Shown here: positions 390 to 29,985 of the stretch, one piece after another
How positions within the stretch are numbered: the stretch's first letter is position 1
How the letters are laid out: each line of letters begins with the position of its first letter
Assembly (NCBI GenBank): GCA_963663765.2
Contig: CAXXUA010000013.1
Location: 352,001-416,000 of the forward strand
DNA: 64,000 nucleotides
Source of the DNA: Candidatus Poribacteria bacterium
GTDB lineage: Bacteria; Poribacteria; WGA-4E; WGA-3G
Reading direction: 5' to 3'
Made by a program: the position numbers and the translations under genes
The notes under the pieces: model-generated
Told to the model about the DNA's origin: nothing
The model's input: the letters and a program-made list of their open reading frames with translations, nothing else
Database searches by the model: none

Positions 390-1208
390 ATGAAGATGTC
401 AACTATACCGAGAAGTATCCTTGAAACACGTGAGTTAAGTCGTCACTACGGTGGTGTAATCGCTTTGTCACAGGTAACAATGCGGGTACTCCCTGGCCAA
501 ATCTCCAGTTTGATTGGTCCAAACGGTGCAGGAAAAACAACACTCTTTAACTGTGTTACGAGTTTAGATAAACCTACGCTGGGGAATGTCAACTTTTTAG
601 GGAAACGTATTACTGGTCTACGTCCAGATGAGGTTACGGGTCTTGGTATTGCCCGTACATTCCAAAATATTAGGTTGTTTACAGATCTAACGGTTTTGGA
701 CAACGTAAAAATCGGGAGACACCTTCTAAATGATTATGTAGAATCATTTCGGACTCGTGCCTTCAGTGCTTTCGTCGGTGCAGTATTTCAAACAAAGATA
801 CAGCAGCAAGAAGAACAACAGATTACCGAATTCGCAAAAGAGATGCTTAATTTTGTTGGATTAGGAGATGTTAGTAACCAAACAGCGGGTAATCTTTCAT
901 ACGGAGACCAACGTCGCGTTGAGATTGCCAGAGCTTTAGCAACGGGACCGTCACTACTTCTTCTTGACGAACCCGCTGCAGGAATGAACCCGCAAGAGAC
1001 GCAAGAACTTATCTCTCTAATTTATACCATACGGGATCAAGGTATTTCAGTGCTGTTGATTGAACACGATATGAAAGTTGTTATGCAGATATCTGACTGG
1101 GTGACTGTATTAGACCATGGTGAGAAAATCAGTGAGGGACAACCCGCAGATGTGCAAAACGATGAACGTGTCATAGAAGCTTATTTAGGAACATCCGAAG
1201 ATGCTTGA
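390..1208 (+). CDS. livG: branched-chain amino acid ABC transporter ATP-binding protein
   Basis: Walker A GPNGAGKTT, GIARTFQNIRLF, LSYGDQRRVEIARALA, LLLDEPAAG, C-terminal VIEAYLG. Confidence 0.92.
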   Translation: MKMSTIPRSILETRELSRHYGGVIALSQVTMRVLPGQISSLIGPNGAGKTTLFNCVTSLDKPTLGNVNFLGKRITGLRPDEVTGLGIARTFQNIRLFTDLTVLDNVKIGRHLLNDYVESFRTRAFSAFVGAVFQTKIQQQEEQQITEFAKEMLNFVGLGDVSNQTAGNLSYGDQRRVEIARALATGPSLLLLDEPAAGMNPQETQELISLIYTIRDQGISVLLIEHDMKVVMQISDWVTVLDHGEKISEGQPADVQNDERVIEAYLGTSEDA

Positions 1209-1905
1209 ACTTAGAGATATCCACACATACTATGGAAATATCCGTGCTGTACGAGGTATTACTGTTAAGGTAAACGCTGGCGAAAAAGTTTGCATGATTG
1301 GCGCAAACGGTGCTGGTAAATCTACAACATTGATGACGATTTCAGGAGTACATAAGCCTGTTGAAGGAAGTGTTTTCTTTGAAGGACAAGATATAACAGC
1401 TACCTCAGCAGAACAACGCGTTTCACTCGGTATATCGCAAGTGCCAGAAGGACGTTTGATTTTTCCTGAGATGTCGGTGCTTGAAAATCTTGAACTCGGT
1501 GCTTACATCCGAAAAGACACATCAGGAATTCACTCGGATCTTGACAAAATATTTGATTATTTTCCAATTCTTGCGACGCGTCGTAAACAGCGCGGTGGTA
1601 GCCTCAGTGGGGGAGAACAGCAGATGTTGGCGATTGGACGCTCCCTGATGTCAAATCCGAGACTCCTCCTCCTTGATGAACCCTCTTTAGGACTTGCCCC
1701 CTTGATTGTAAAACAGATCTTTGAAATTATACAACAGATAAACAAGGAGGGAACAACAATCCTTTTGGTTGAGCAGAACGCACAAATTGCTTTGAATGTA
1801 ACGGATAGAGGGTATGTGATGGAAACTGGTGAAATCACGATTTCAGGTACCTCTGATGACCTATTAGCAGATGAACGTGTAAGGCAAGCGTATCTCGGGG
1901 AATAA
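1201..1905 (+). CDS. livF: branched-chain amino acid ABC transporter ATP-binding protein
   Basis: GANGAGKST, VPEGRLIF, LSGGEQQMLAIGR, LLLDEPSLGLAP, VEQNA; overlaps livG stop. Confidence 0.93.
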   Translation: MLELRDIHTYYGNIRAVRGITVKVNAGEKVCMIGANGAGKSTTLMTISGVHKPVEGSVFFEGQDITATSAEQRVSLGISQVPEGRLIFPEMSVLENLELGAYIRKDTSGIHSDLDKIFDYFPILATRRKQRGGSLSGGEQQMLAIGRSLMSNPRLLLLDEPSLGLAPLIVKQIFEIIQQINKEGTTILLVEQNAQIALNVTDRGYVMETGEITISGTSDDLLADERVRQAYLGE

Positions 1906-1910
1906 TCTGA

Positions 1911-2762
1911 ATGTACCCAACTCTGCTTGATTTCGGAACAATCTTTTCCATTCCCATCGGAATCCATAGTTATGGTGTTATGTTAGCCACTGCCTTCATT
2001 ACATGTAGTGTGTTTATACAACGTGAATTGAATCGACGAGGGTTTCAGGGAGATATAGCCACAACGATAGTCGTTGGGGGTGCGATTGGTGGGATAATTG
2101 GTGCAAAAATCTACTATGTACTATTTGTTGCATCAGCGTTTTCAATTCGAGAAATATTTAGTCCTACTGGTTTAGTATGGTATGGTGGTTTAATCGGTGG
2201 GAGTGTTGCTGTTGGTTGGGTTGTTCACCGTTCTCCAAATCCGTTTCTACCGTCCGTTGATGTCATCGGTCCCTTACTCCTACTCGGATACGGTATTGGT
2301 CGTATAGGGTGTTTACTTGCAGGTGACGGTGACTATGGTCCCGCTTCAGACCTACCTTGGGCAATGGCATTCCCAAATGGCACTGTTCCCACAGTTGTAC
2401 CTGTTCATCCAACACCTATCTATGAGACTTCCATGTCCTTGATTTTCTTCGGTATCCTCTGGTCTCAAAGGAAAAGAACTACATCAATCCCAGGACTGCT
2501 TTTTGGTGCGAGTCTTGTTCTGCTTGCCGTGGAGAGGTTTATCGCAGAATTTTGGAGATTGACACCACGTGTGTTCCCTACTGACCACGCAATGTCATGG
2601 CTGACATCCCCGCAGGTAGTAAGTGTTATCTTATTCTGGTTTGGTGTCGTCTTTATTTATGGGATGTATCAACGTCCAAGAGTTGCTGTTGATACTGAAG
2701 TGCCAATTCCGGGACCTGAAAAAGAGACCCCGCGTCTGCCAAAACGTAGACGGCGGCGATAA
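1911..2762 (+). CDS. lgt: prolipoprotein diacylglyceryl transferase
   Basis: MYPTL, IHSYG, GLVWYGGLIGG, IGRIGC..GDGDYG, HPTPIYE, RFIAEFWR; multiple TM helices. Confidence 0.9.
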   Translation: MYPTLLDFGTIFSIPIGIHSYGVMLATAFITCSVFIQRELNRRGFQGDIATTIVVGGAIGGIIGAKIYYVLFVASAFSIREIFSPTGLVWYGGLIGGSVAVGWVVHRSPNPFLPSVDVIGPLLLLGYGIGRIGCLLAGDGDYGPASDLPWAMAFPNGTVPTVVPVHPTPIYETSMSLIFFGILWSQRKRTTSIPGLLFGASLVLLAVERFIAEFWRLTPRVFPTDHAMSWLTSPQVVSVILFWFGVVFIYGMYQRPRVAVDTEVPIPGPEKETPRLPKRRRRR

Positions 2763-2807
2763 ATCTATTGTAGAATATTGGACAAATATGTTCTATTTTA
2801 TTTCACC

Positions 2808-4070
2808 TTACACCCGTATCTGACCATCCCCATAGATTACATACTTATAACTTGTCAATCCTTCAAGTCCCATAGGTCCGCGAGAGTGAAGTTTCTGTGT
2901 GCTGATACCTACCTCTGCACCTAACCCAAATTCATAACCATCGGTGAAAACGGTGCTCGCATTGACATAGACCGCAGCAGAATCTACCTCTTTCAGAAAA
3001 CGTTGTGATGCTGAATAACTTTCGGTGATGATTGCATCAGAATGATGTGAACCGTAAGTTTCTATGTGGTCAATTGCTGTGTCTATGTTGTCCACTACAC
3101 GAATGGAGAGGATATAATCGAGATATTCTGTCCGCCAGTCATCTTCAGTTGCAGGTTTGGCATCAGTAATAATGTTCTGGGTTTTATCGCATCCCCGGAT
3201 TTCAACTTTCGCTTCATGCATCAATTCACAGAAGTTGGGAAGGAATTCCTTAGCAACATCGGTATGCACGAGAAGTGTCTCTAATGCATTGCAGACAGCA
3301 ACCTTGTATCCTACCTTTGCATTCAGACAGATTTTGTTTGCCATGTCAAGGTCAGCAGCTGCATCTACATAGATATGACAGATACCGTCTGCATGTCCAA
3401 GTACCGGTATGTCAGATTCTCTCATCAAGAATTGGACAAATTCATTACTCCCACGTGGGATTACAAGATCAATATATTCTGGTAGACGAATAAGTTCATA
3501 GACTGCTTGTCTGTCTGTTGTGTCTACAAACTGGATTGCATCAGGTACACCTTCTGCTTCGGCAGTATCGCTGATGATTCTTGCCAGAATTGTGTTGGAT
3601 TTGATCGCTTCTGAACCACCCCGAAGAATCACACCGTTTCCTGATTTGATACATAGTGCCGACACCTCAACGGTCACATCAGGACGGGACTCATATACGA
3701 CACCGACTACACCGATGGGAACACGCACAGTACCGATTTTGAGGCCGTTGGGACGTTCTCCCATGCTGATAATCTCACCAATAGGGTCAGGAAGTGCGGC
3801 AACCTGCCTTAAGTTATCCGCCATCCGCACAATTTTCTTATCGTCAATCAGTAGACGTTGCAATAATGGCGTAGCGAGACCTGTTTTTTCAGCATTATCA
3901 AGGTCAGAAAGGTTAGCTTCTTGTATTTCGTCCTCGGCGTTTAGGATGTTTTCAGACATCTTTAGCAGTGTACTATTACGTATGTCAGCGGAGCTGCGTG
4001 ACAATATACGCATACCTGCTTTTGCTTTCTTTGCTTTTGCTCTGATCATCTTCTGGATGTTTTCGTTCAT
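2808..4070 (-). CDS. proA: glutamate-5-semialdehyde dehydrogenase
   Basis: VPIGVVGVVYESRP, LRGGSEA, IPRG, VCNALETLLVH, GAEVGISTQKLHSRGPMGL. Confidence 0.96.
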   Translation of the reverse strand: MNENIQKMIRAKAKKAKAGMRILSRSSADIRNSTLLKMSENILNAEDEIQEANLSDLDNAEKTGLATPLLQRLLIDDKKIVRMADNLRQVAALPDPIGEIISMGERPNGLKIGTVRVPIGVVGVVYESRPDVTVEVSALCIKSGNGVILRGGSEAIKSNTILARIISDTAEAEGVPDAIQFVDTTDRQAVYELIRLPEYIDLVIPRGSNEFVQFLMRESDIPVLGHADGICHIYVDAAADLDMANKICLNAKVGYKVAVCNALETLLVHTDVAKEFLPNFCELMHEAKVEIRGCDKTQNIITDAKPATEDDWRTEYLDYILSIRVVDNIDTAIDHIETYGSHHSDAIITESYSASQRFLKEVDSAAVYVNASTVFTDGYEFGLGAEVGISTQKLHSRGPMGLEGLTSYKYVIYGDGQIRV

Positions 4071-4138
4071 TCTCGATTTCCTTTGATGTGTTGGATTGAG
4101 ACATTACTTTACAACGTTTCCAACAAGTTTACTTGAGT

Positions 4139-5335
4139 TCAGTTTAGAAGCACAAGATTATCTCTATGTATAATTTCATCGTAATCGTGATATCCGAGTA
4201 TTTCTTTTATGTCCTGTGTTTGTTTACCAGCAAGTTTTGAAGTCTCTGTTGAGTTATAGTTTATCAGACCTCGCGCGATTTCCAAACCATCCTCTGTGAA
4301 ACATGAGACTGTATCGCTGTAATTAAAATGTCCCTCTACGCGACGAATACCCGCGGGCAACAGACTTTTCCCTCCTTGCATGAGTGCGTCATGCGCGCCG
4401 TTATCTACAACAAGGTAGCCTTGGGGTGGACGGGAATAGGCGATCCAACGTTTACGACCAGAGATTCGCGTGTTAGGAAGGAATAGCGTGCCAATTAGTT
4501 CACTTGAGAGAATACGTGTGACAATCATAGGTTCTCGACCATAAGCAATTAACACCATTTCACCAGAGGATGTAACGATTTCTGCTGCTCGTAGTTTTGT
4601 AACCATGCCACCAGTACCAGTTGCAGAACCAGCATTGCCAGCAGCTTGCCAAAGTTCTTCAGAAATAGAGTCAACTGTATGGATTAATTCCACATCTGGA
4701 TTATGTCTTGGATCTGCGGTGAAAAAACCTTGTTGGTCGGAAAGGATGATGAGCAGGTCGGCTTGGGTAAGGTTGGTAACATAAGCTGAAAGTGTGTCGT
4801 TGTCACCGACCTTAATTTCGTCAACAGCAACACTGTCATTTTCGTTGATAATCGGTATCGCACCGAGTTGAAGCAATTTCTGTATAGCATCGTTCATTCG
4901 GGTGTAACGTTTCCTATCGGAAAAGTCATCTTGAGTGAGTAAATGAGTGCTACATACTTGATTATAATTGCGGAAACGTTCTTCATAGGCAGCCATCAAC
5001 CGAATCTGTCCAACAGCAGCAGATGCCTGTAACTCGGGTAATGTCTGCGGTTTTGTGTTAAGACCAAGATAGGGCCAACCAGCTGCAATTGCACCCGATG
5101 TTACAAGTATGACTTCAATACCTTGCTGTTTGACTGTCGCTAAATCGTGAACAAGACCATCAAGTGCGGTTTCATTAATATGTAGATTGTCTGAAATTGT
5201 GCTGCTACCGACTTTTACGACAATTCGTTTGACATTGGTAAGACATTCACGGGTGTGAATTTGTCTTTTAGGATCCGTATTGTCGGTTTGTACAGACGTG
5301 TGAGTTTGCGTGAAAATCTCTTCTGAATTATTCAT
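4139..5335 (-). CDS. proB: glutamate 5-kinase with C-terminal PUA domain
   Basis: RIVVKVGSS, VTSGAIAAG, PIINENDSV, GDNDTLSA, GTGGMVTKL, SLLPAGI, IHRDNLV. Confidence 0.96.
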   Translation of the reverse strand: MNNSEEIFTQTHTSVQTDNTDPKRQIHTRECLTNVKRIVVKVGSSTISDNLHINETALDGLVHDLATVKQQGIEVILVTSGAIAAGWPYLGLNTKPQTLPELQASAAVGQIRLMAAYEERFRNYNQVCSTHLLTQDDFSDRKRYTRMNDAIQKLLQLGAIPIINENDSVAVDEIKVGDNDTLSAYVTNLTQADLLIILSDQQGFFTADPRHNPDVELIHTVDSISEELWQAAGNAGSATGTGGMVTKLRAAEIVTSSGEMVLIAYGREPMIVTRILSSELIGTLFLPNTRISGRKRWIAYSRPPQGYLVVDNGAHDALMQGGKSLLPAGIRRVEGHFNYSDTVSCFTEDGLEIARGLINYNSTETSKLAGKQTQDIKEILGYHDYDEIIHRDNLVLLN

Positions 5336-5346
5336 CCTATTTTACT

Positions 5347-6639
5347 TCACTTGATTTTTCTTGGATTATAAGTGAATTCAAATTCATCAATCCGAATTGT
5401 ATCACCCTCTTTGACGCCTGCACGGGTTAATGCGTTTATTACTCCCATCTTTTTTAGTTTTCTAAACAATAGAATCAGTGCCTGTTCGTTTTCCATGTCA
5501 GTCATCACGACAGCGCGTTTCGGTTCAGTTCCACTAACGATAAATCCTTCTGTGGTATTCTCAAGTTCAAAACGGACTCGAGGTTCTGGTGGTAGTGTTT
5601 CTTCGTAGGTAATCGTTGTATCCGCTTCTTTCCGTGCTTTTTCTTCAAGGTAGAGTAAGGAACGGTTTGCCTGTTGCATTAACGTATCAACACCTTGTCC
5701 TGTAATAGCAGAGATAGGAAAGACCTTTCTCTTACCAAAATAGGTTTGGACTCGTTCTAAATTCGTTCCAGCTTCGGGTGTATCAATTTTATTGAGTGCA
5801 ATTAGTTGGGGTAGGTCAGTCAATTTGGGATTGTAGTGACCGAGTTCAAGGTTTAATTGTTCATAGTCTTTGATAGGGTCTCTTCCATCTGCTGCGCTTA
5901 GGTCTATAACATGGATCAACATTTTTGTGCGCTCAATGTGTCGGAGAAACTGATGACCTAAACCAGCACCTTTATGTGCCCCTTCAATCAAACCTGGAAT
6001 ATCTGCAAGGACAAAATTATGGTCTTGGTCAATGCGGACGACACCTAGGTTTGGGATTAGTGTTGTGAAGGGGTAGGATGCGATTTTTGGCGTTGCAGCA
6101 GAGGTTCGTGCAAGGAGTGTGGATTTACCAGCATTGGGGTAGCCAACTAACCCCACATCAGCAATGACTTTGACTTCAAGTCTAATCTCCCGTTCTTCCC
6201 CTGGTTCGCCTAATTCTGCGACACGTGGCACTTGAAAAGTGCTGCTTTTAAAACGTGAATTGCCTTTTCCACCAATACCACCGCCTGCTGCTATAACTGT
6301 CTGACCAGGTTCTGCCAAATCCGCAAGTAATTCATCTGTGTCATAATCTTTGACTATAGTACCGACTGGTACTTTTATGATTCGATCATCACCATCGGCT
6401 CCAGCCCGTTGTTTGCCAGTACCGTGTTTTCCGTTTTCTGCGACTTGACGTGGGTTATGGCGTAAATCTATCAGGGTACTTATGCCAAGTGTTGCAATGA
6501 GAATTACGTTGCCGCCGTTTCCTCCATCGCCACCATCGGGACCACCGCGAGGTACAAATTTCTCACGACGAAAACTGATACAACCATTACCACCGTTGCC
6601 AGCTTTGATTAGAATTCTTGCTGTATCCATATACGTCAC
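5347..6639 (-). CDS. obgE: GTPase Obg/CgtA
   Basis: FRREKFVPRGGPDGGDGG, GYPNAGKSTLL, YPFTTL, DIPGLIEGAH, NKID. Confidence 0.96.
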   Translation of the reverse strand: MTYMDTARILIKAGNGGNGCISFRREKFVPRGGPDGGDGGNGGNVILIATLGISTLIDLRHNPRQVAENGKHGTGKQRAGADGDDRIIKVPVGTIVKDYDTDELLADLAEPGQTVIAAGGGIGGKGNSRFKSSTFQVPRVAELGEPGEEREIRLEVKVIADVGLVGYPNAGKSTLLARTSAATPKIASYPFTTLIPNLGVVRIDQDHNFVLADIPGLIEGAHKGAGLGHQFLRHIERTKMLIHVIDLSAADGRDPIKDYEQLNLELGHYNPKLTDLPQLIALNKIDTPEAGTNLERVQTYFGKRKVFPISAITGQGVDTLMQQANRSLLYLEEKARKEADTTITYEETLPPEPRVRFELENTTEGFIVSGTEPKRAVVMTDMENEQALILLFRKLKKMGVINALTRAGVKEGDTIRIDEFEFTYNPRKIK

Positions 6640-25314: not shown

Positions 25315-26613
25315 TTAGAAATAGTTTGCCACAAGGACTAAATCAAGGATGTTCACCTCTCCATCGGTGTTTACATCACCTGTAATTCCAGGACCTCTTT
25401 GTCCGAAAGCTTGACCGACAATTACTAAGTCTTTTATGTTCACAAACCCATCATCGTTAACATCTTCATTTCTTGGAATAATCTGAACAATTGTAACATT
25501 ATCAGTGCCAAAACCGAGTTCATAGGTTTTCAGGAGTGTCTCATCTGAATCCATCACAATCATTGTTGACAATCCGCTTTGTGTCCAATCAGGTTTTGTT
25601 ATGTAGAGATTACCATCATGTCCGAAAGCCATTCCAGACCCACCAGCAAACGCACTGAGTGTGTTGTTTCGATCGCGTATCCATTCTTTGGTATGGACAT
25701 CGTAGATTAGCAATCCAGGATGCTGCCACCCTCCTTGAATAAACAGTTGTTTCTCCGAATTGATTGCTATTGCACCCGGTGTCGTCCTTGTGTTAACCTC
25801 AGTGATGATTTCATCAGTAGTCGTGTCAATTAGCACGAGTCTGCCCGTTATCAAATTGTAATCACCTGTGGTCTTTACGATAACAGTAGATTCACCGTCA
25901 TTCACTATTCCAGTAGCGTTTATTGGCATTGGAATAGATTTTAACACAGTGTCAGTCTGTGTATCAATTACTGTCACGCTGCTCTGATGGTAAATGGATT
26001 TACCTGCAAGCGCATCCCACTCCCAAGCGGGATTGGTCACATACGCTTTTCCATTCAAGAGTGTGATCCCCGTAGTTTTGTTCATGGATGGGTCGGTGAT
26101 AACTTTGGTCACTTTGCGTGTATCAATATTAACAACCAATACTTGATGAGCATTGTCACAGGTAACGTACATCTTAGTAGAATTAATAAGTGCCATGTTC
26201 TGTGGATAAGCTCCAGGAGGGATTGCAATTCTACCAACATACTTTCTATTTTCAAGATTAACAATTTCAATGGTATCGCTTTGGTCTCCAGATAACCAAT
26301 CAAAACGTGTTATATATGCAAGATGTCCATGAACCAGAATGTCAGTAGGAACATCCCCTATAGTGACAATCTCATCGTCAACAGCGCGTTGTAAATTCGG
26401 TTCATCTAAATCAATGATTGAGATCGTTGAAGTGATATGCCAATCTTCTCTATCAAGTGAATTCAAAACGACAGCAAGATTTTGGACATCTGATTGAGCA
26501 AGCGTGGAACCTACGAGGGATGTGAAAAGTAGAGCACTGATGAGTATCAGTGAATGTAGTTTATGTGTTGTGTAGAAACCGAAATGTCGCCTAAAGAAAA
26601 AACCTGTTTGCAT
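25315..26613 (-). CDS. YncE/BtuG-like beta-propeller protein with C-terminal dockerin-like EF-hand pair
   Basis: GGAGG RBS before ATG 26613; YVT repeats (KMYVT, KAYVTN, VTVIDT.TD.V); DVNDDGFVNIKDL / DVNTDGEVNILDL. Confidence 0.75.
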   Translation of the reverse strand: MQTGFFFRRHFGFYTTHKLHSLILISALLFTSLVGSTLAQSDVQNLAVVLNSLDREDWHITSTISIIDLDEPNLQRAVDDEIVTIGDVPTDILVHGHLAYITRFDWLSGDQSDTIEIVNLENRKYVGRIAIPPGAYPQNMALINSTKMYVTCDNAHQVLVVNIDTRKVTKVITDPSMNKTTGITLLNGKAYVTNPAWEWDALAGKSIYHQSSVTVIDTQTDTVLKSIPMPINATGIVNDGESTVIVKTTGDYNLITGRLVLIDTTTDEIITEVNTRTTPGAIAINSEKQLFIQGGWQHPGLLIYDVHTKEWIRDRNNTLSAFAGGSGMAFGHDGNLYITKPDWTQSGLSTMIVMDSDETLLKTYELGFGTDNVTIVQIIPRNEDVNDDGFVNIKDLVIVGQAFGQRGPGITGDVNTDGEVNILDLVLVANYF

Positions 26614-26627
26614 TAATACCTCCGTAA

Positions 26628-26667
26628 TGAAACAAGAAACCCCTGCTTTCATAGGAAAGACAGGGGA
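26628..26667 (-). terminator. candidate intrinsic terminator in riboswitch leader
   Basis: minus strand cccctg-tctttcctatgaaag-cagggg followed by tttcttgttt, just upstream of the RBS. Confidence 0.5.
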
Positions 26668-26807
26668 CAAGGGACACTTCGTATAACTATGATCCTGATA
26701 TTTAGGTTGATTGAGAAATATTTTATCAGTATTTCTATTCTATTTTGTCAGGATTACGTTGTGCTTTATTCCACCGCTTTCCCGCGAAAGCAGATTTGTG
26801 AAACACG

Positions 26808-27014
26808 ATCCAGGCAGGTCTCCTGACTTCCGATTAATTGGGTAGTTTACAATCAAAACTGGTACTACCTATCCCGCTGTGCCTTCCCATCAACCATTGA
26901 CAGTGGACTTTTACAGCGGTTATTCCTATTTAGGAATAAATCGTTTACAGTGGCGGGGCCGTGGCGGATTTTCACCGCGCTTCCCTATTCTCCGAACTTC
27001 GGCACCTGAACCGT
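26808..27014 (-). ncRNA. cobalamin (AdoCbl) riboswitch
   Basis: minus strand: aggtgcc...aatagggaagcgcggtgaaaatccgccacggccccgccactgtaa...gtccactg...tgggaagg...aagtcaggagacctgcc (B12-box). Confidence 0.95.
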
Positions 27015-27041
27015 TCATTATATTTAATTATTGATGTGTAA

Positions 27042-27425: not shown

Positions 27426-27589
27426 GGTATTTTATAAAGTTTCACGAATATGCGATCTAGTAGATAAATAGAAACACCTTTGAAAACAACTAGCAACAAA
27501 CGGAATATGACCAAACTATAGTATTTTTTTAAACCGTTCTTAAGAATTTCCTACTCATTATAACCGAAATCTAATTAGGAATTCTGTAT

Positions 27590-29374
27590 ATGTACTTCAA
27601 TTTTACGCCTATAAGCGACCTGAAAGATGAAAATCTCGTCCCGCTTGTCCAAGCTCGTGACGAAACAGCATTCAAGGAATTGATGGATCGTTACAATCCA
27701 AAAATCTGGTTTGTAGTTAACGAAAATTCAAGACAACGCCAAGATGCTGAAGAGATCCTTATGGACATCTGGATGGCAGTTTGGGATAACATTATCGGTT
27801 TACGAAAACCAGAAAGTTTTGGCGGGTGGTTACGCAGAATCGCACATAACGCCTGCAAAAGATACTACGCATCGGGCAAAAATCAGCATAGTGAAATACT
27901 ATTAGATTATGATGAACTCACTCTACAGATTGATAGAGAAGCGGAACAACGTTTTCAAAACGCAAGACTACGATCTGATGCAAGAGAAGCAGTACATCAA
28001 CTTCCACAACGCATAGTGTCTGTCGCGAGATTATACTATCTTGAGCAGTGGAACGTCAATGAGATCGCTACCGAACTCAACTTAGCTGTCGGTACTGTAA
28101 AGTCAAAACTCAGTGAAGTACGGAAACTGCTAAGAAAAGAATTTGAGGTTGAACCTATAAGGAGAGAAACTATGTCAGCTAACATGCAAAACAATGAAAA
28201 CGAACAGAAAAAAATAAAAATTATAGGTGTTGGCGGTGCTGGATGTAACACTCTTAAACGCCTAATTGATGAAAGTTGGAGAAACACTGAATTCTATGTT
28301 GTTGATACTGATAAGGAAACCCTTAGTTCTTGCAATGAGGTGACACAAGTACAAATCGGTATAAACAATCTTAAAGGGCAAAGTACCAACGGAAACCTGG
28401 AACTTGGGAAAAGGGCAGCTGCGGAAAGTATGGAAGAACTACGTGCTATCGTCTCAGACGCAAGTCTGGTTTTTGTAATTGCAGGTATGGGGGGAGGAAC
28501 TGGTACTGCGGTTGCACCAGTTATTACTTCACTGGCACGCCAACAAAAAGCATTAACGATCTGTATGGCAACACGTCCATTTGAAGTAGAAGGTAAACTA
28601 CGCTCAGAACAGGCAGAAGAAGGGATAAGGGAACTGCACAGTAACGAGCATCCCCAAGCTGATGCAGTTATCATTGTCCCAAACCAGCGAATACTCGATT
28701 TAGTTGACGTGGATTTACCTATACCCCAAGCTTTCTTGGAAAGTGATGAAATCTTGGTACAAGGTGTAAGTCTTATCGCAGAAATGGTTACATATAATGG
28801 TGAAATAAATGTAGACTTAGAAGATATTCAATCAATGCTACAAAACAAAGGAACTGTTCTAATGAGTTTCGGTAAAGCTAAAGGCGAAAATAGAGCAGGA
28901 ATCGCTGCACGGAACGCAATATCCTCACCCTTATTCGAGGAGAGTAAAGTCAATGAGGAATCTGCAGTCATTGTTGGTATCGCATCTCCACCAGATTTTA
29001 CCATGCATGATTTAGATGCAGTCATGAAGGAAATAGTTAAAGAAACCCCACATGATCAGTGTATGTTTGGATTAGTATATAAAAAAGAACTGGAGGCAAC
29101 TGGTGAAGTGATAGTAACAATCATTGCAACAATGCCTGATTCTTCTAAACAGCAAGTACTTACAATTGACACCAGTAAGGACACAGAAGCTCCCACCGAT
29201 GATAAGACCGTTTCCGCATCAAAAACACAAGAATTTACACATCAACCCAAATACAGTAATTTTGATCTTTCATATCTTATAAATCAAGTACCCGTAAATG
29301 TGCAAACAACGATTGAACAAGGTATTACTGCCACAGTAAAAAACCAACTTCAGTCAGAGAAAATACACAGTTGA
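27590..29374 (+). CDS. ECF (sigma-70 group 4) sigma factor fused to an FtsZ/tubulin-like GTPase domain
   Basis: sigma region 2 (DAEEILMDIW, FGGWLRRIAHN) and region 4 (EIATELNLAVGTVKSKL); FtsZ motifs IKIIGVGGAGCN, AGMGGGTGT, PFEVEG..R, PNQRI, INVDLED; AGGA RBS. Confidence 0.9.
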   Translation: MYFNFTPISDLKDENLVPLVQARDETAFKELMDRYNPKIWFVVNENSRQRQDAEEILMDIWMAVWDNIIGLRKPESFGGWLRRIAHNACKRYYASGKNQHSEILLDYDELTLQIDREAEQRFQNARLRSDAREAVHQLPQRIVSVARLYYLEQWNVNEIATELNLAVGTVKSKLSEVRKLLRKEFEVEPIRRETMSANMQNNENEQKKIKIIGVGGAGCNTLKRLIDESWRNTEFYVVDTDKETLSSCNEVTQVQIGINNLKGQSTNGNLELGKRAAAESMEELRAIVSDASLVFVIAGMGGGTGTAVAPVITSLARQQKALTICMATRPFEVEGKLRSEQAEEGIRELHSNEHPQADAVIIVPNQRILDLVDVDLPIPQAFLESDEILVQGVSLIAEMVTYNGEINVDLEDIQSMLQNKGTVLMSFGKAKGENRAGIAARNAISSPLFEESKVNEESAVIVGIASPPDFTMHDLDAVMKEIVKETPHDQCMFGLVYKKELEATGEVIVTIIATMPDSSKQQVLTIDTSKDTEAPTDDKTVSASKTQEFTHQPKYSNFDLSYLINQVPVNVQTTIEQGITATVKNQLQSEKIHS

Positions 29375-29395
29375 TATAATTATTACTGTGTTGTG

Positions 29396-29985
29396 GTAGG
29401 GGTTTCCAACCCCTACCCTTCTACCGGTAGAAGCGACCCGGGGAATGCCTTAATGGCTTTCATACCGTTGATTTGGTGCTTTGTAAGCGCGCTGGCACAT
29501 TAAGACCTAACAGAGCGCTTACAAAGCACGCCTACCGTGTGAGAAATATTTATTACCGAATTAATAAATTAATCTTCATCCAACCTCTACATCTTGCCGC
29601 TTCCCTCGCTTGTGGTCTGGTATCTCTTGTGGTCTGGTATCTCTTGTAGGAGGGGTTTCCAACCCCGATTTCTGAATCATGTATGACGCGAAATGCACAC
29701 ATCAAAAACCTTTGATGATGTAAATCCAGAAAATCTGTAAATCCCGGGGAATGCCATAAGGCATTCATACCCAGGGAATGCTTTATAGCATTCATACCGT
29801 TGATTTCTTGATTTGTAAATCATGGTTCAGAAAAAAAACACAGATAAAAAAACCAAGCCAATAAACCTAATGCAAATGTCTTATCCTGAAAATCTGTAAA
29901 TCCTGGTTCAGACAAAAAATTCGCGTAATCCGCGTAATCCGAGAATCCGTTCAACAAGTACAAAATCCAAAAAATCCGTGATACA
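29396..29985. repeat. intergenic cluster of REP-like and short dispersed repeats
   Basis: gtaggggtttccaacccctac, gtaggaggggtttccaaccccg, ggaatgc..gcattcataccgttgattt copies, aatccgcgt repeats. Confidence 0.65.

What the first reader, a model, noticed from the sequence alone, without database searches (positions are those of the whole stretch)
27590..29374. ECF sigma factor covalently fused to an FtsZ/tubulin GTPase
Seen: one uninterrupted 594-aa ORF. Residues ~1-185 are a complete ECF sigma factor (region 2 DAEEILMDIW/FGGWLRRIAHN; region 4 HTH EIATELNLAVGTVKSKL). Residues ~207-515 are a full FtsZ core (GVGGAGCN, AGMGGGTGT, PF..EG..R, T7 loop GEINVDLEDI). Established: ECF sigmas with C-terminal extensions use them as built-in regulatory modules; the FtsZ T7 residues N/D/D activate GTP hydrolysis across subunits; division FtsZ ends in a conserved D/E-I/V-P-x-F-L peptide and usually lies in the dcw cluster. 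Here the T7 residues are kept, the signature reads GGGTGTA instead of GGGTGTG, the T3 loop is altered (LKGQSTNG for TKGLGAG), the C-terminal peptide is absent and there are no dcw or anti-sigma neighbours. Inference: a one-component transcription switch in which nucleotide binding, self-polymerisation or co-polymerisation with the Z-ring controls sigma availability, possibly coupling transcription to division or GTP status. I do not know of a characterised protein with this architecture.
Basis: partly seen in the sequence, partly recalled or inferred. Interest (0 to 1): 0.92.

Follow-up and report, generated by a model that had tools for sequence, protein, structure and literature searches.

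The report
Sigma factor fused to FtsZ copy
A sponge-symbiont-type bacterium carries a gene in which a transcription-starting sigma factor is joined to a spare copy of the cell-division protein FtsZ, one member of a conserved and apparently undescribed gene family whose longer relatives also carry a DNA polymerase.

Summary
Window 27590-29374 (+) is one 594-aa ORF: a complete ECF sigma factor, an 18-residue low-confidence linker, a full FtsZ core and a 44-aa tail.

It is not an assembly artefact. Contigs from three studies bridge the junction. The junction-spanning first 300 aa match in 90 of 99 other genomes of one family whose named relatives are Candidatus Poribacteria, and in 0 of 51 genomes of other families.

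The genome also has a canonical ftsA-ftsZ, a 95%-identical second copy, and a 406-aa short form with sigma plus only the FtsZ GTPase half.

- **Ancestry.** In 51 related genomes the same gene runs on into a DnaE-type polymerase (about 1340-1740 aa). Our tail is a decayed remnant of that polymerase's PHP start.
- **Shared sigma module.** The same module is also fused to WD40 propellers.
- **Shared promoter.** All six such genes here carry one promoter-like motif found nowhere else in the genome.

All domains are under purifying selection. Modelling puts sigma2 on FtsZ helices H3/H4 beside the T3/T4 loops (0.73; best control 0.00).

Best reading: an autoregulated one-component sigma whose FtsZ module is its sensor. 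The mechanism is untested, and I found no published description.

The parts
27524..27564 (+). Promoter-like bipartite motif: T-run + TAAACC (27530-27535), an 18-nt spacer, then CTCATTATAAC (27554-27564), 55-60 nt before the ATG. It is followed by a conserved leader with AGGA (27577-27580).
   Evidence: Sequence read. The same motif lies upstream of 22 of 23 fetched relatives. The strict pattern has 6 hits in the whole genome, all in front of the six genes with this sigma module. PWM scores are 29-48 bits for those six, against 20.2 for the next site and 14.4 for the shuffled maximum (the six are training sites).
27590..29374 (+). Whole ORF, 594 aa: ECF sigma - FtsZ core - PHP vestige ('L form').
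   Evidence: Purifying selection against two orthologs gives omega 0.23-0.27 overall.
27626..27877 (+). Sigma region 2 (aa 13-96), including DAEEILMDIW and FGGWLRRIAHN.
   Evidence: Pfam Sigma70_r2 31-95. AF2 helices 13-96 have pLDDT about 73-90. Omega is 0.15-0.17.
27878..27973 (+). Sigma2-sigma4 linker (aa 97-128).
   Evidence: pLDDT is below 50 over 94-128. Omega is 0.31-0.47.
27974..28147 (+). Sigma region 4 with its HTH (aa 129-186).
   Evidence: Pfam Sigma70_r4_2 133-181 and Sigma70_r4 135-183. Omega is 0.09-0.10, the lowest in the protein.
28148..28207 (+). Flexible inter-module linker (aa 187-206).
   Evidence: pLDDT is below 50 over 188-205.
28208..28789 (+). FtsZ N-terminal GTPase domain (aa 207-400): T1 GVGGAGCN, altered T3 GQSTNGNL, T4 GGGTGTA, and helices H3/H4 predicted to hold sigma2.
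   Evidence: Pfam Tubulin 208-372. Residue table. Predicted interface residues are 260, 271-285, 307-318, 348 and 354. Omega is 0.15-0.19.
28790..29137 (+). T7 loop (GEINVDLED, aa 404-412) and FtsZ C-terminal subdomain (aa 401-516).
   Evidence: Pfam FtsZ_C 421-514. Omega is 0.37-0.46. The T7 N is replaced by S in the C6 copy.
29138..29239 (+). Low-complexity spacer (aa 517-550).
   Evidence: pLDDT is below 50 over 518-566.
29240..29371 (+). Vestige of the N-terminus of a PHP domain of a DnaE-type polymerase (aa 551-594); the H-x-H motif is lost.
   Evidence: The tail aligns column for column with the PHP start of the 1340-1440-aa relatives and with near-intact remnants in P0004-P0007. Predicted helix 569-593 has pLDDT 74-82. 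Omega is 0.34-0.39.
27522..29413 (+). Block shared at 96.6% nucleotide identity with the second copy on contig C6 (gene plus 68 nt upstream and 39 nt downstream).
   Evidence: blastn of the two loci with 6-kb flanks. Metagenome unitigs break at 27522.

Best explanation
The ORF encodes a functional ECF-type sigma factor. It belongs to a clade found in one family of genomes whose named relatives are Candidatus Poribacteria.

Members of this clade keep one conserved sigma2-sigma4 module and carry exchangeable C-terminal cargo. The cargo is a recent paralog of the cell's own FtsZ (whole, or the GTP-binding half only), of its DnaE polymerase, or WD40 propellers. Each gene sits behind the same ECF-like promoter (T-run TAAACC-N18-CTCTnTA), so the set is probably auto- and cross-regulated.

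The window's protein is the 'L' form. It descends from a sigma-FtsZ-PolIII alpha triple fusion that lost the polymerase and kept a 44-aa PHP vestige.

Proposed mechanism (inferred, not shown): with no anti-sigma factor, the FtsZ module is the built-in regulator. Sigma2 docks in cis on helices H3/H4 of the GTPase domain, next to the nucleotide-sensing T3 and T4 loops. The nucleotide state of the FtsZ module, or its assembly with itself or with the cell's FtsZ, then decides whether sigma2 is free to join RNA polymerase.

What is shown: the architecture, its conservation, its ancestry, the selection on it and the shared promoter motif. What is modelled: the sigma2-FtsZ contact. What is inferred: GTP or polymer control, and autoregulation.
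For: Architecture.

Conservation: the first 300 aa, which span the junction, match at E<=1e-70 in 91 of 151 genomes of the phylum sample. That is 90 of 99 other genomes of family f1 and 0 of 51 from eight other families.

Origin of the FtsZ module: all fusion rows group with the clade's own FtsZ (SH-aLRT 99), apart from 9 other FtsZ representatives.

Selection against two orthologs (about 77-80% aa identity to ours): sigma4 0.09-0.10, sigma2 0.15-0.17, FtsZ-N 0.15-0.19, FtsZ-C 0.37-0.46, tail 0.34-0.39.

Nucleotide motifs: T4 GGGTGT is kept in nearly all of the 140 fusion rows, and T1 in most.

No anti-sigma among the 10 neighbours scanned.

Promoter: the strict motif has 6 hits in 6.35 Mb, all before the six sigma-module genes. 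It is present in 22 of 23 fetched relatives across two genera.

Cis contact: ipSAE 0.73 (median of 3 runs), best of 3 controls 0.00. The mark was reached by 58 of 80 solved complexes and 2 of 110 mismatched pairs. The runs share at least 81% of their contacts, and the partner's pLDDT is at least 83. My own alignment was used, so these counts hold only roughly. No solved sigma-FtsZ complex turned up in the sequence search of the PDB.

Substitutions at that surface: L and XL forms have hydrophobic residues where canonical FtsZ and S forms are charged or small. Position 278 is E in the latter and A in 38 of 45 L. Position 281 is K/R versus M/L/I in 44 of 45 L and 21 of 22 XL. Position 308 is A versus V in 33 of 45 L. 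On the sigma side, position 69 is S in S forms and I in 32 of 45 L.

AF2 model of the whole chain: pTM 0.69 despite 111 residues below pLDDT 50.

Precedent: ECF groups with C-terminal extensions lack anti-sigma factors and are regulated through the extension. I read this in passages of PMC8999054, PMC5766207 and PMC7826278.
Against: - No experiment and no RNA evidence bears on the protein.
- The docking is a model. Both chains came from one alignment in the same row order.
- The sigma residues involved (the N-terminal helix with Q21, D24 and E25) are conserved in the WD40-fused siblings too. They are therefore not specific to FtsZ binding.
- S forms share the sigma module but have the charged, canonical-like H3 surface, so the contact may not hold for them.
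- Interface columns are no more conserved than the rest of the domain (mean entropy 1.10 against 1.18).
- The T3 loop is rewritten. T1 carries D in 10 of 45 L and 8 of 22 XL forms, and T7 is variable. GTP binding, hydrolysis and polymerisation may therefore be lost in many members.
- Recognition of the motif by this sigma is assumed from ECF precedent. Paralogs could simply have inherited a promoter read by another sigma.
- No target other than the sigma genes themselves was found, which leaves the output of the 'switch' unexplained.
Confidence: 0.5

Rival explanations
1. Cargo delivery rather than sigma control. The sigma module is a self-driving expression and targeting device, and the fused FtsZ, polymerase or WD40 part is the effector. 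Bound to RNA polymerase at its own promoter class, the sigma would bring the cargo to DNA or RNAP. In the long relatives that could be a clamp-independent DnaE core able to extend from a transcription bubble or primer. In the L form it would be an FtsZ scaffold left over from that machine.
For: - The only sites found for the promoter motif are the fusion genes themselves.
- The fused polymerase keeps the PHP H-x-H (23 of 23), the PDIDIDF motif (22 of 23) and the third Asp (23 of 23).
- In 13 of 21 aligned XL rows the polymerase ends near residue 890 of 1183 of the own DnaE, after the HhH domain. It therefore lacks the C-terminal third.
- Sigma-polymerase fusions without FtsZ exist (P0277, and G130 L035).
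- L and XL never occur together in one genome in the rows, so they are states of one locus.
Against: - The L form (22 genomes) and the S form (most genomes) have no polymerase, yet they are under purifying selection.
- Nothing indicates DNA synthesis at promoters.
- A sigma is released or repositioned after initiation, which suits a sensor better than a tether.
Confidence: 0.17
2. Integrated decoy or sentinel. Spare copies of two essential machines that phages and competitors often attack (FtsZ, DnaE) are wired to a sigma. An inhibitor binding the decoy frees the sigma and triggers a response.
For: - The partners are recent paralogs of the host's own FtsZ and DnaE (64-72% identity to the two DnaE copies of G000).
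- There are several paralogs per genome.
- Constraint is weaker on the FtsZ C-subdomain (omega 0.37-0.55).
- The siblings carry WD40 binding modules.
- The contigs that hold the gene include a sponge metagenome.
Against: - No defence or effector gene carries the promoter motif, and none lies beside the gene.
- PADLOC was not run.
- Omega below 1 everywhere gives no sign of an arms race.
Confidence: 0.13
3. Division modulator. The FtsZ part is the business end and poisons or caps the cell's FtsZ filaments, and the sigma only provides feedback on its own level. This applies above all to the S form, which has the GTP face but no T7 loop or C-domain. It also applies to the L form, which lacks the C-terminal tail peptide. 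Such a protein would give a slow-growing symbiont a brake on division.
For: - 72 of 73 S forms end after helix H7, with canonical-like T1-T6 loops.
- The L form lacks the linker and the ...DIPAFLR... peptide of the own FtsZ.
- From recalled knowledge: FtsZ subunits with one dead interface act as sub-stoichiometric cappers.
Against: - The sigma domains are the most strongly conserved part (omega 0.09-0.17). That is not expected for a mere feedback appendage.
- The T3 loop of L and XL, part of the longitudinal face, has diverged from the own FtsZ. That argues against co-assembly.
Confidence: 0.12
4. Artefact or decaying relic: a misassembled junction, or a pseudogene left after loss of the polymerase.
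For: - The tail is a decayed PHP remnant.
- One relative (G044) has a stop inside sigma4, with the FtsZ part in the next frame.
- Between the two copies in this genome, omega of the FtsZ part is 0.55.
Against: - Contigs of three studies bridge the junction.
- Intact frames occur in 89 other genomes.
- Two intact copies are present here.
- Omega is 0.23-0.27 overall against orthologs at dS of about 0.5.
- The promoter and leader are conserved across two genera.
Confidence: 0.02

Closest known systems
[quoted passage not shown] M. tuberculosis SigJ), ECF42 (TPR), ECF238 (Cys-rich CorE type)
   Same: Both have sigma2 and sigma4 only, no cognate anti-sigma gene, and a fused C-terminal domain thought to contact the sigma core and gate activity. 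I read passages in PMC8999054, PMC5766207 and PMC7826278. Here there is no anti-sigma neighbour and a predicted sigma2-extension contact.
   Different: Here the extension is a 310-aa self-assembling GTPase paralog of an essential cytoskeletal protein, and in relatives also a DnaE polymerase. It is not a small ligand- or protein-binding domain. The extension is exchangeable within one sigma clade. The modelled contact is with sigma2, not with the sigma2-sigma4 linker as described for ECF41 or sigma4 as predicted for ECF42.
ECF groups with WD40-like C-terminal extensions (ECF57; 'ECF01-Gob' of Planctomycetes)
   Same: WD40-fused siblings carrying the same sigma module are present in this genome. 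The review passage names ECF57 as carrying WD40-like repeats, and the passage lists ECF01-Gob among groups with a C-terminal domain.
   Different: Membership of our sigma in either group was not testable, because no ECF-group models were on hand. Neither passage mentions FtsZ, tubulin or a polymerase. That ECF01-Gob carries WD40 is recalled, not seen in a call.
Cell-division FtsZ (closest solved: Staphylococcus aureus and S. epidermidis FtsZ chains such as 4m8i_A, 4dxd_A, 3vo8_A)
   Same: Full Tubulin and FtsZ_C domains. E about 1e-66 to solved FtsZ over residues 204-550. GGGTGT signature and, in this copy, the T7 N-x-D-x-x-D. Derived from the clade's own FtsZ.
   Different: It scores below the TIGR00065 equivalog cut-off. 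It has no C-terminal linker or peptide and does not lie in a dcw context. The T3 loop is rewritten, H3/H4 surface residues are hydrophobic, and a sigma factor sits at the N-terminus. The real ftsZ lies 131 kb away on the same contig.
Assembly-coupled sigma control (SpoIIE-FtsZ-sigmaF in Bacillus sporulation; FlgM-sigma28 in flagellar assembly)
   Same: The idea is that sigma activity reports on the state of a large assembly. For SpoIIE I saw only the abstract in the listing (PMC5373596), which calls it bifunctional in asymmetric septum formation and sigmaF activation. FlgM-sigma28 is recalled.
   Different: Those systems use separate proteins and partner switching or export. Here the sigma would be covalently part of the assembling protein. 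The likeness is functional only and is not tested.
DnaE-type DNA polymerase III alpha (for the tail and the long relatives)
   Same: Relatives carry PHP, DNA_pol3_alpha, finger and HHH_6 domains at E 1e-20 to 1e-83. They are 64-72% identical to the two DnaE copies of this genome.
   Different: In the window only a 44-aa vestige is left, without the H-x-H. Most fused polymerases stop near residue 890 of 1183 and so lack the C-terminal third. That this third holds the clamp- and tau-binding parts and the OB fold is recalled, not tested.

Membership tests
ECF (group 4) sigma-70 family | Regions 2 and 4 present; regions 1.1 and 3 absent | tested here: met
   Pfam finds only Sigma70_r2 (31-95) and r4/r4_2 (133-183) within the first 196 aa. 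TIGR02937 sigma70-ECF scores 70.5 bits against a cut-off of 42.9.
ECF (group 4) sigma-70 family | Own gene preceded by a bipartite promoter with an AAC-containing -35 element (positive autoregulation) | tested here: inconclusive
   A TAAACC-N18-CTCTnTA motif lies before all six genes with this sigma module and nowhere else at strict match. That this sigma reads it is inferred.
ECF (group 4) sigma-70 family | Binds core RNA polymerase and directs promoter-specific initiation | not testable with these tools
   Needs in vitro transcription or a reporter assay.
ECF sigma factors with a regulatory C-terminal extension | No cognate anti-sigma factor gene nearby | tested here: met
   Ten neighbouring ORFs were scanned and none has an anti-sigma domain. 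The gene stands alone between a divergent riboswitch-led gene and a TPP enzyme gene.
ECF sigma factors with a regulatory C-terminal extension | Extension contacts the sigma core and changes its activity | tested here: inconclusive
   A model only: ipSAE 0.73 against a best control of 0.00. Activity was not tested.
A named ECF group (e.g. ECF57, ECF01-Gob) | Match to that group's sequence model | not testable with these tools
   No ECF-group models on hand. The best specific NCBIfam hits are all below their cut-offs. Supplementary Text S2 and Table S2 of PMC7826278 could not be read.
Cell-division FtsZ (TIGR00065 equivalog) | Score above the curated equivalog cut-off | tested here: not met
   277.8 bits against 295.2. 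The genome's true ftsZ scores 390.1.
Cell-division FtsZ (TIGR00065 equivalog) | Conserved C-terminal peptide after a variable linker | tested here: not met
   Absent from the translation. Present as ...DIPAFLR... in the own FtsZ.
Cell-division FtsZ (TIGR00065 equivalog) | Location next to ftsA in a dcw cluster | tested here: not met
   The neighbours are unrelated. The own ftsZ follows ftsA.
FtsZ/tubulin GTPase superfamily | Tubulin GTPase domain with the GGGTG(T/S)G signature, plus the FtsZ_C domain | tested here: met
   Pfam Tubulin 129.7 bits and FtsZ_C 51.1 bits. The signature reads GGGTGTA, and the core GGGTGT is kept in nearly all of the 140 fusion rows.
FtsZ/tubulin GTPase superfamily | T7 loop N-x-D-x-x-D that completes the neighbour's active site | tested here: met
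   NVDLED in this protein. Across the 45 L forms, N is kept in 29, the first D in 24 and the second D in 45. The loop is absent in 72 of 73 S forms.
FtsZ/tubulin GTPase superfamily | GTP binding, GTPase activity and polymerisation | not testable with these tools
   Needs biochemistry. The T3 loop is altered.
DnaE-type PolIII alpha (PHP domain) | PHP metal-binding H-x-H at the N-terminus and the polymerase core | tested here: not met
   The window's tail aligns to the PHP start but reads THQPK where relatives read VHLHN, and nothing follows. tblastn finds no polymerase remnant downstream. The feature is met in the XL relatives.

The most novel reading that the evidence does not exclude
A family of self-transcribing sigma factors carries spare copies of the cell's own division protein (FtsZ) and replicative polymerase (DnaE) in the same polypeptide. 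In this reading the sigma is a physical subunit of, or a decoy for, the divisome and replisome. Transcription then reads out the integrity or occupancy of these machines directly. In the triple fusions, an RNA-polymerase-bound sigma may bring a clamp-independent DNA polymerase to a defined promoter class, giving promoter-targeted DNA synthesis. Either would be a mode of coupling transcription to division and replication with no described counterpart.
Probability: 0.2. Interest if true: 0.95.

Novelty: new variant of a known kind. Interest (0 to 1): 0.82.

Why it matters
ECF sigma factors with fused sensor domains are treated as the 'one-component systems' of the sigma world, but the known sensors are small binding domains. 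Here the sensor or cargo is a self-assembling GTPase derived from the cell's own FtsZ, and in 51 related genomes also a catalytically intact-looking DnaE core.

If the FtsZ module gates the sigma, this would be the first case of a transcription initiation factor built into a cytoskeletal polymer subunit. It would be a direct, testable link between nucleotide or polymer state and gene expression.

If instead the sigma targets the cargo, it would be a natural precedent for promoter-directed polymerases.

It also gives FtsZ research natural variants under selection. One has only the GTP-binding half. Another has a rewritten T3 loop and a hydrophobic H3/H4 face.

The proteins are soluble domains of known folds, so GTPase, polymerisation and in vitro transcription assays are feasible even though the organisms are uncultured.

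Tried and rejected
**Misassembly or two genes:** rejected.

**Pseudogene:** rejected.

**RNA evidence:** no RNA holder was listed for the stretch, so nothing can be said on expression.

**Regulon search:**
- A position weight matrix was built from 12 non-redundant sites, reduced from 28 found.
- It gave no convincing site beyond the six sigma-fusion genes.
- The next hits (20.2 bits) lie in a 157-bp tandem repeat on contig C3. They lack the TAAACC core on inspection and look compositional.
- The looser regex was not enriched: 19 found, 17.3 expected.
- The six top sites are training sites, so their scores are circular. The independent support is the strict regex count.

**A fusion outside this family:**
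- P0149 (456 aa, sigma plus Tubulin, 35% identical) fell outside the clade in the tree.
- Searching the species-representative genomes with it returned only plain FtsZ genes of four Bacteroidota records.
- Its origin stays unknown.

**Origin of the fused polymerase:** pairwise identities of 64-72% to both DnaE copies of G000 do not say which copy is the parent. No outgroup tree was built.

**Number of losses of the polymerase:**
- The tree forces at least 5 changes of the L label on starred branches.
- Some 'L' rows from metagenomes may be cut by contig ends.
- The shared end point and similar last residues of the tails may instead mean few events. This is left open.

**Tree rows left out:** 54 of 72 S rows, chosen at random, and 5 fragment rows.

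**Steps not taken:**
- Fold search and the second structure job were not used.
- PADLOC and PHROGs were not run.
- Supplements of the ECF classification paper were not read, and they may list this architecture.

**Literature:**
- Searches found no description of a sigma-FtsZ or sigma-DnaE fusion.
- Passages read found none either.
- This covers only the held library.


Full report
**1. The observation**

Window 27590-29374 (+) is a single 594-aa ORF with no internal stop.
- Pfam finds Sigma70_r2 (31-95), Sigma70_r4_2 and r4 (133-183; both region-4 scores sit within 1 bit below their cut-offs), Tubulin (208-372, 129.7 bits) and FtsZ_C (421-514, 51.1 bits).
- NCBIfam places residues 27-184 in the ECF superfamily model TIGR02937, above its cut-off.
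- It matches residues 196-528 to ftsZ TIGR00065 at 277.8 bits, below the 295.2-bit equivalog cut-off.
- An AlphaFold2 model built on an 89-row alignment has mean pLDDT 74.3 and pTM 0.69. Sigma2, sigma4 and FtsZ are confident. The sigma2-sigma4 linker (94-128), the inter-module linker (188-205) and a spacer (518-566) are low. A C-terminal helix (569-593) is moderately confident.

**2. It is not an artefact**

- Contigs of three runs from three studies cross the sigma-FtsZ junction without gaps. A fourth run covers it in pieces.
- The genome (6.35 Mb, 15 contigs) has four FtsZ-like loci:
  - the true ftsZ, 447 aa, above the cut-off, directly after ftsA, and ending in ...DIPAFLR...;
  - our gene;
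  - a second 594-aa copy on contig C6;
  - a 406-aa gene on C5 with the same sigma joined to the FtsZ GTPase domain only.
- The two long copies share a block that runs from 68 nt upstream to 39 nt downstream of the gene, at 96.6% nucleotide identity.

**3. Distribution**

- The first 300 residues span the junction. They match at E<=1e-70 in 91 of 151 genomes sampled from the phylum.
- That is 90 of 99 other genomes of the window's family (genera g1 35/37, g2 54/57, g4 1/1, g3 0/2, g5 0/2) and 0 of 51 genomes of eight other families.
- One of the 90 (G044) has a stop inside sigma4, with the FtsZ part in the next frame.
- Sources that name relatives call them Candidatus Poribacteria bacterium. 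They annotate them as 'sigma-70 family RNA polymerase sigma factor', 'cell division protein FtsZ' or 'hypothetical'.
- Among 1.84 billion cluster representatives the family collapses to a handful: P0016 (L), P0122 (XL), P0123 (S), P0127 (sigma-polymerase) and a distant P0149.

**4. A family of architectures**

In the rows the fusion lies in three classes of open frame:
- 1340-1744 aa in 16 g1 and 35 g2 genomes (XL);
- 554-671 aa in 16 g1 genomes (ours included), 5 g2 and 1 g4 (L);
- about 398-464 aa (S) in most genomes, alongside an L or an XL.

No genome shows both L and XL.

The XL protein of G030 (1435 aa) has sigma r2 and r4, Tubulin, FtsZ_C, PHP, DNA_pol3_alpha, finger and HHH_6 domains.

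Each of four genomes checked also has a separate full-length DnaE.

The fused polymerase:
- keeps the PHP H-x-H (23 of 23), the PDIDIDF motif (22 of 23) and a third conserved Asp (23 of 23);
- ends near residue 890 of the 1183-residue own DnaE in 13 of 21 XL rows, and reaches full length in 2.

Sigma-polymerase proteins without FtsZ also exist (P0277, 1084 aa; G130, 1104 aa).

In this genome three genes on contig C11 begin with the same sigma module. It is 55-59% identical to the sigma of the G030 protein.
- Two of them are 901-902-aa WD40 proteins.
- The third is an 852-aa ORF whose C-terminal part I did not scan.

**5. Ancestry of the window's gene**

- The last 44 residues align column for column with the first strand-helix-strand of the PHP domain of XL relatives.
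- Close L relatives (P0004-P0007) still read ...EFVHLHNHSEYS..., while ours has decayed to ...EFTHQPKYSNFD....
- The L form therefore descends from the triple fusion by loss of the polymerase. How many times this happened is unresolved.
- In a tree of the FtsZ GTPase domain, all fusions group with the clade's own FtsZ (SH-aLRT 99) against nine FtsZ representatives from elsewhere (100 rows; quick IQ-TREE; 54 of 72 S rows and 5 fragments left out).
- S forms are one clade (99). L and XL together have support 88. Our protein sits in a 47-row clade (99) that mixes L and XL.

**6. Selection and residues**

Omega against two orthologs (about 77-80% aa identity to ours, dS about 0.5):

| Region | Omega |
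|---|---|
| sigma2 | 0.15-0.17 |
| sigma4 | 0.09-0.10 |
| FtsZ-N | 0.15-0.19 |
| FtsZ-C | 0.37-0.46 |
| PHP vestige | 0.34-0.39 |

Between the two in-genome copies omega is 0.10 for sigma, 0.55 for FtsZ and 0.30 for the tail, on small counts.

Residues, from alignments of 11 canonical, 73 S, 45 L and 22 XL rows:
- The T4 core GGGTGT is nearly invariant.
- The third T1 glycine is D in 10 L and 8 XL.
- The T3 loop is canonical-like in S forms but rewritten in L and XL.
- In L forms the T7 N, first D and second D are kept in 29, 24 and 45 of 45.
- 72 of 73 S forms stop before T7.

**7. Promoter-like motif**

- Upstream regions of XL and L genes from two genera share about 70 nt of near-identical sequence.
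- The motif is a T-run, TAAACC, 18 nt, CTCTnTA, then a leader with the ribosome-binding site. It is present in 22 of 23 fetched loci.
- In G000 the strict pattern occurs six times, exactly before the two L genes, the S gene and the three C11 genes.
- A matrix scan found nothing convincing beyond these six.
- This fits the usual positive autoregulation of ECF sigmas. It does not prove which sigma reads the motif.

**8. Cis contact**

Sigma (1-196) was folded against the FtsZ core (205-520), each with the family alignment.
- The score was 0.73 (median of three runs), and the best of three controls was 0.00.
- The mark was reached by 58 of 80 solved complexes and 2 of 110 mismatched pairs.
- The runs share at least 81% of contacts, and the partner's pLDDT is at least 83. 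Because my own alignment was used, these counts hold only roughly.
- Contacts join sigma residues 3, 5, 15, 18-24, 66, 69, 70 and 72 to FtsZ residues 260, 271-285 (H3, just after T3), 307-318 (H4, just after T4), 348 and 354.
- At positions 278, 281 and 308, and at sigma position 69, L and XL forms are hydrophobic where canonical FtsZ and S forms are charged or small.
- That fits a surface newly used for binding, but it amounts to one evolutionary event.
- The interface columns are not more conserved than the rest of the domain.

**9. Reading**

The best-supported explanation is an autoregulated one-component ECF sigma whose FtsZ module is the built-in regulator. I put this at about 0.5.

The rivals are:
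- cargo delivery, suggested by the intact-looking polymerase and the self-only promoter set;
- an integrated decoy for attacks on FtsZ or DnaE;
- a division brake;
- an artefact, which is excluded.

**10. Novelty**

- The main text of the ECF re-classification paper contains no FtsZ, tubulin, GTPase or Poribacteria.
- A review of non-canonical ECFs lists SnoaL, TPR, Cys-rich and WD40-like extensions but no GTPase.
- Eight full-text searches returned no description of such a fusion.
- I therefore rate it a new variant of a known kind (an ECF sigma with a fused C-terminal module), with an unusually surprising module and an unexpected polymerase-bearing ancestor.

Noticed in passing
window 26796-27024 (-), with ORF 25315-26670 (-): A cobalamin riboswitch (RF00174, 93.5 bits against a gathering score of 31.5) fills part of the long 'empty' region upstream of the sigma-FtsZ gene. 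It lies on the other strand and leads into a 451-aa ORF with a dockerin domain and a weak DUF5074 hit, possibly a B12-regulated surface protein.
   Followed up: partly
window about 29641-29744 and 29388-29500: A repeat of about 100 bp lies downstream of the gene, with three copies near the C6 paralog. A short element near 29436-29476 has very high summed depth, and metagenome contigs break there. These look like interspersed REP- or MITE-like repeats.
   Followed up: no
G000 contig C11, about 45.9-81 kb (L036, L037); outside the window: A cluster of at least six genes for ECF sigma factors fused to WD40 propellers, interleaved with WD40-only proteins. Some have a transmembrane segment between sigma and WD40, and some do not.
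   Followed up: partly
G000:C5:312233-315682; outside the window: A second stand-alone full-length DnaE paralog (1149 aa), 67% identical to the canonical DnaE of the same genome. G030, G097 and G035 have no such stand-alone copy.
   Followed up: partly
L026 (G111:C1), ORF 989-6220: One relative has a 1743-aa frame in which the sigma-FtsZ part is followed by a polymerase that aligns to the full length of DnaE. This may be the least reduced form.
   Followed up: no
protein P0149 (456 aa, on a 2078-nt contig): A sigma plus Tubulin-domain protein only 35% identical to ours. Its FtsZ part fell outside the Poribacteria-type clade in the tree, so it may be an independent fusion in another lineage. 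The organism could not be found.
   Followed up: partly
G000:C3, about 401.4-412.8 kb; outside the window: Arrays of a 157-bp tandem repeat with a G+C-rich hairpin, picked up by chance in the promoter matrix scan.
   Followed up: no
L034 (G044:C1:4938500-4941800): The only disrupted copy seen. It has a TAA inside sigma4, then a 401-aa ORF starting just before the FtsZ domain and ending with a near-intact PHP remnant.
   Followed up: partly
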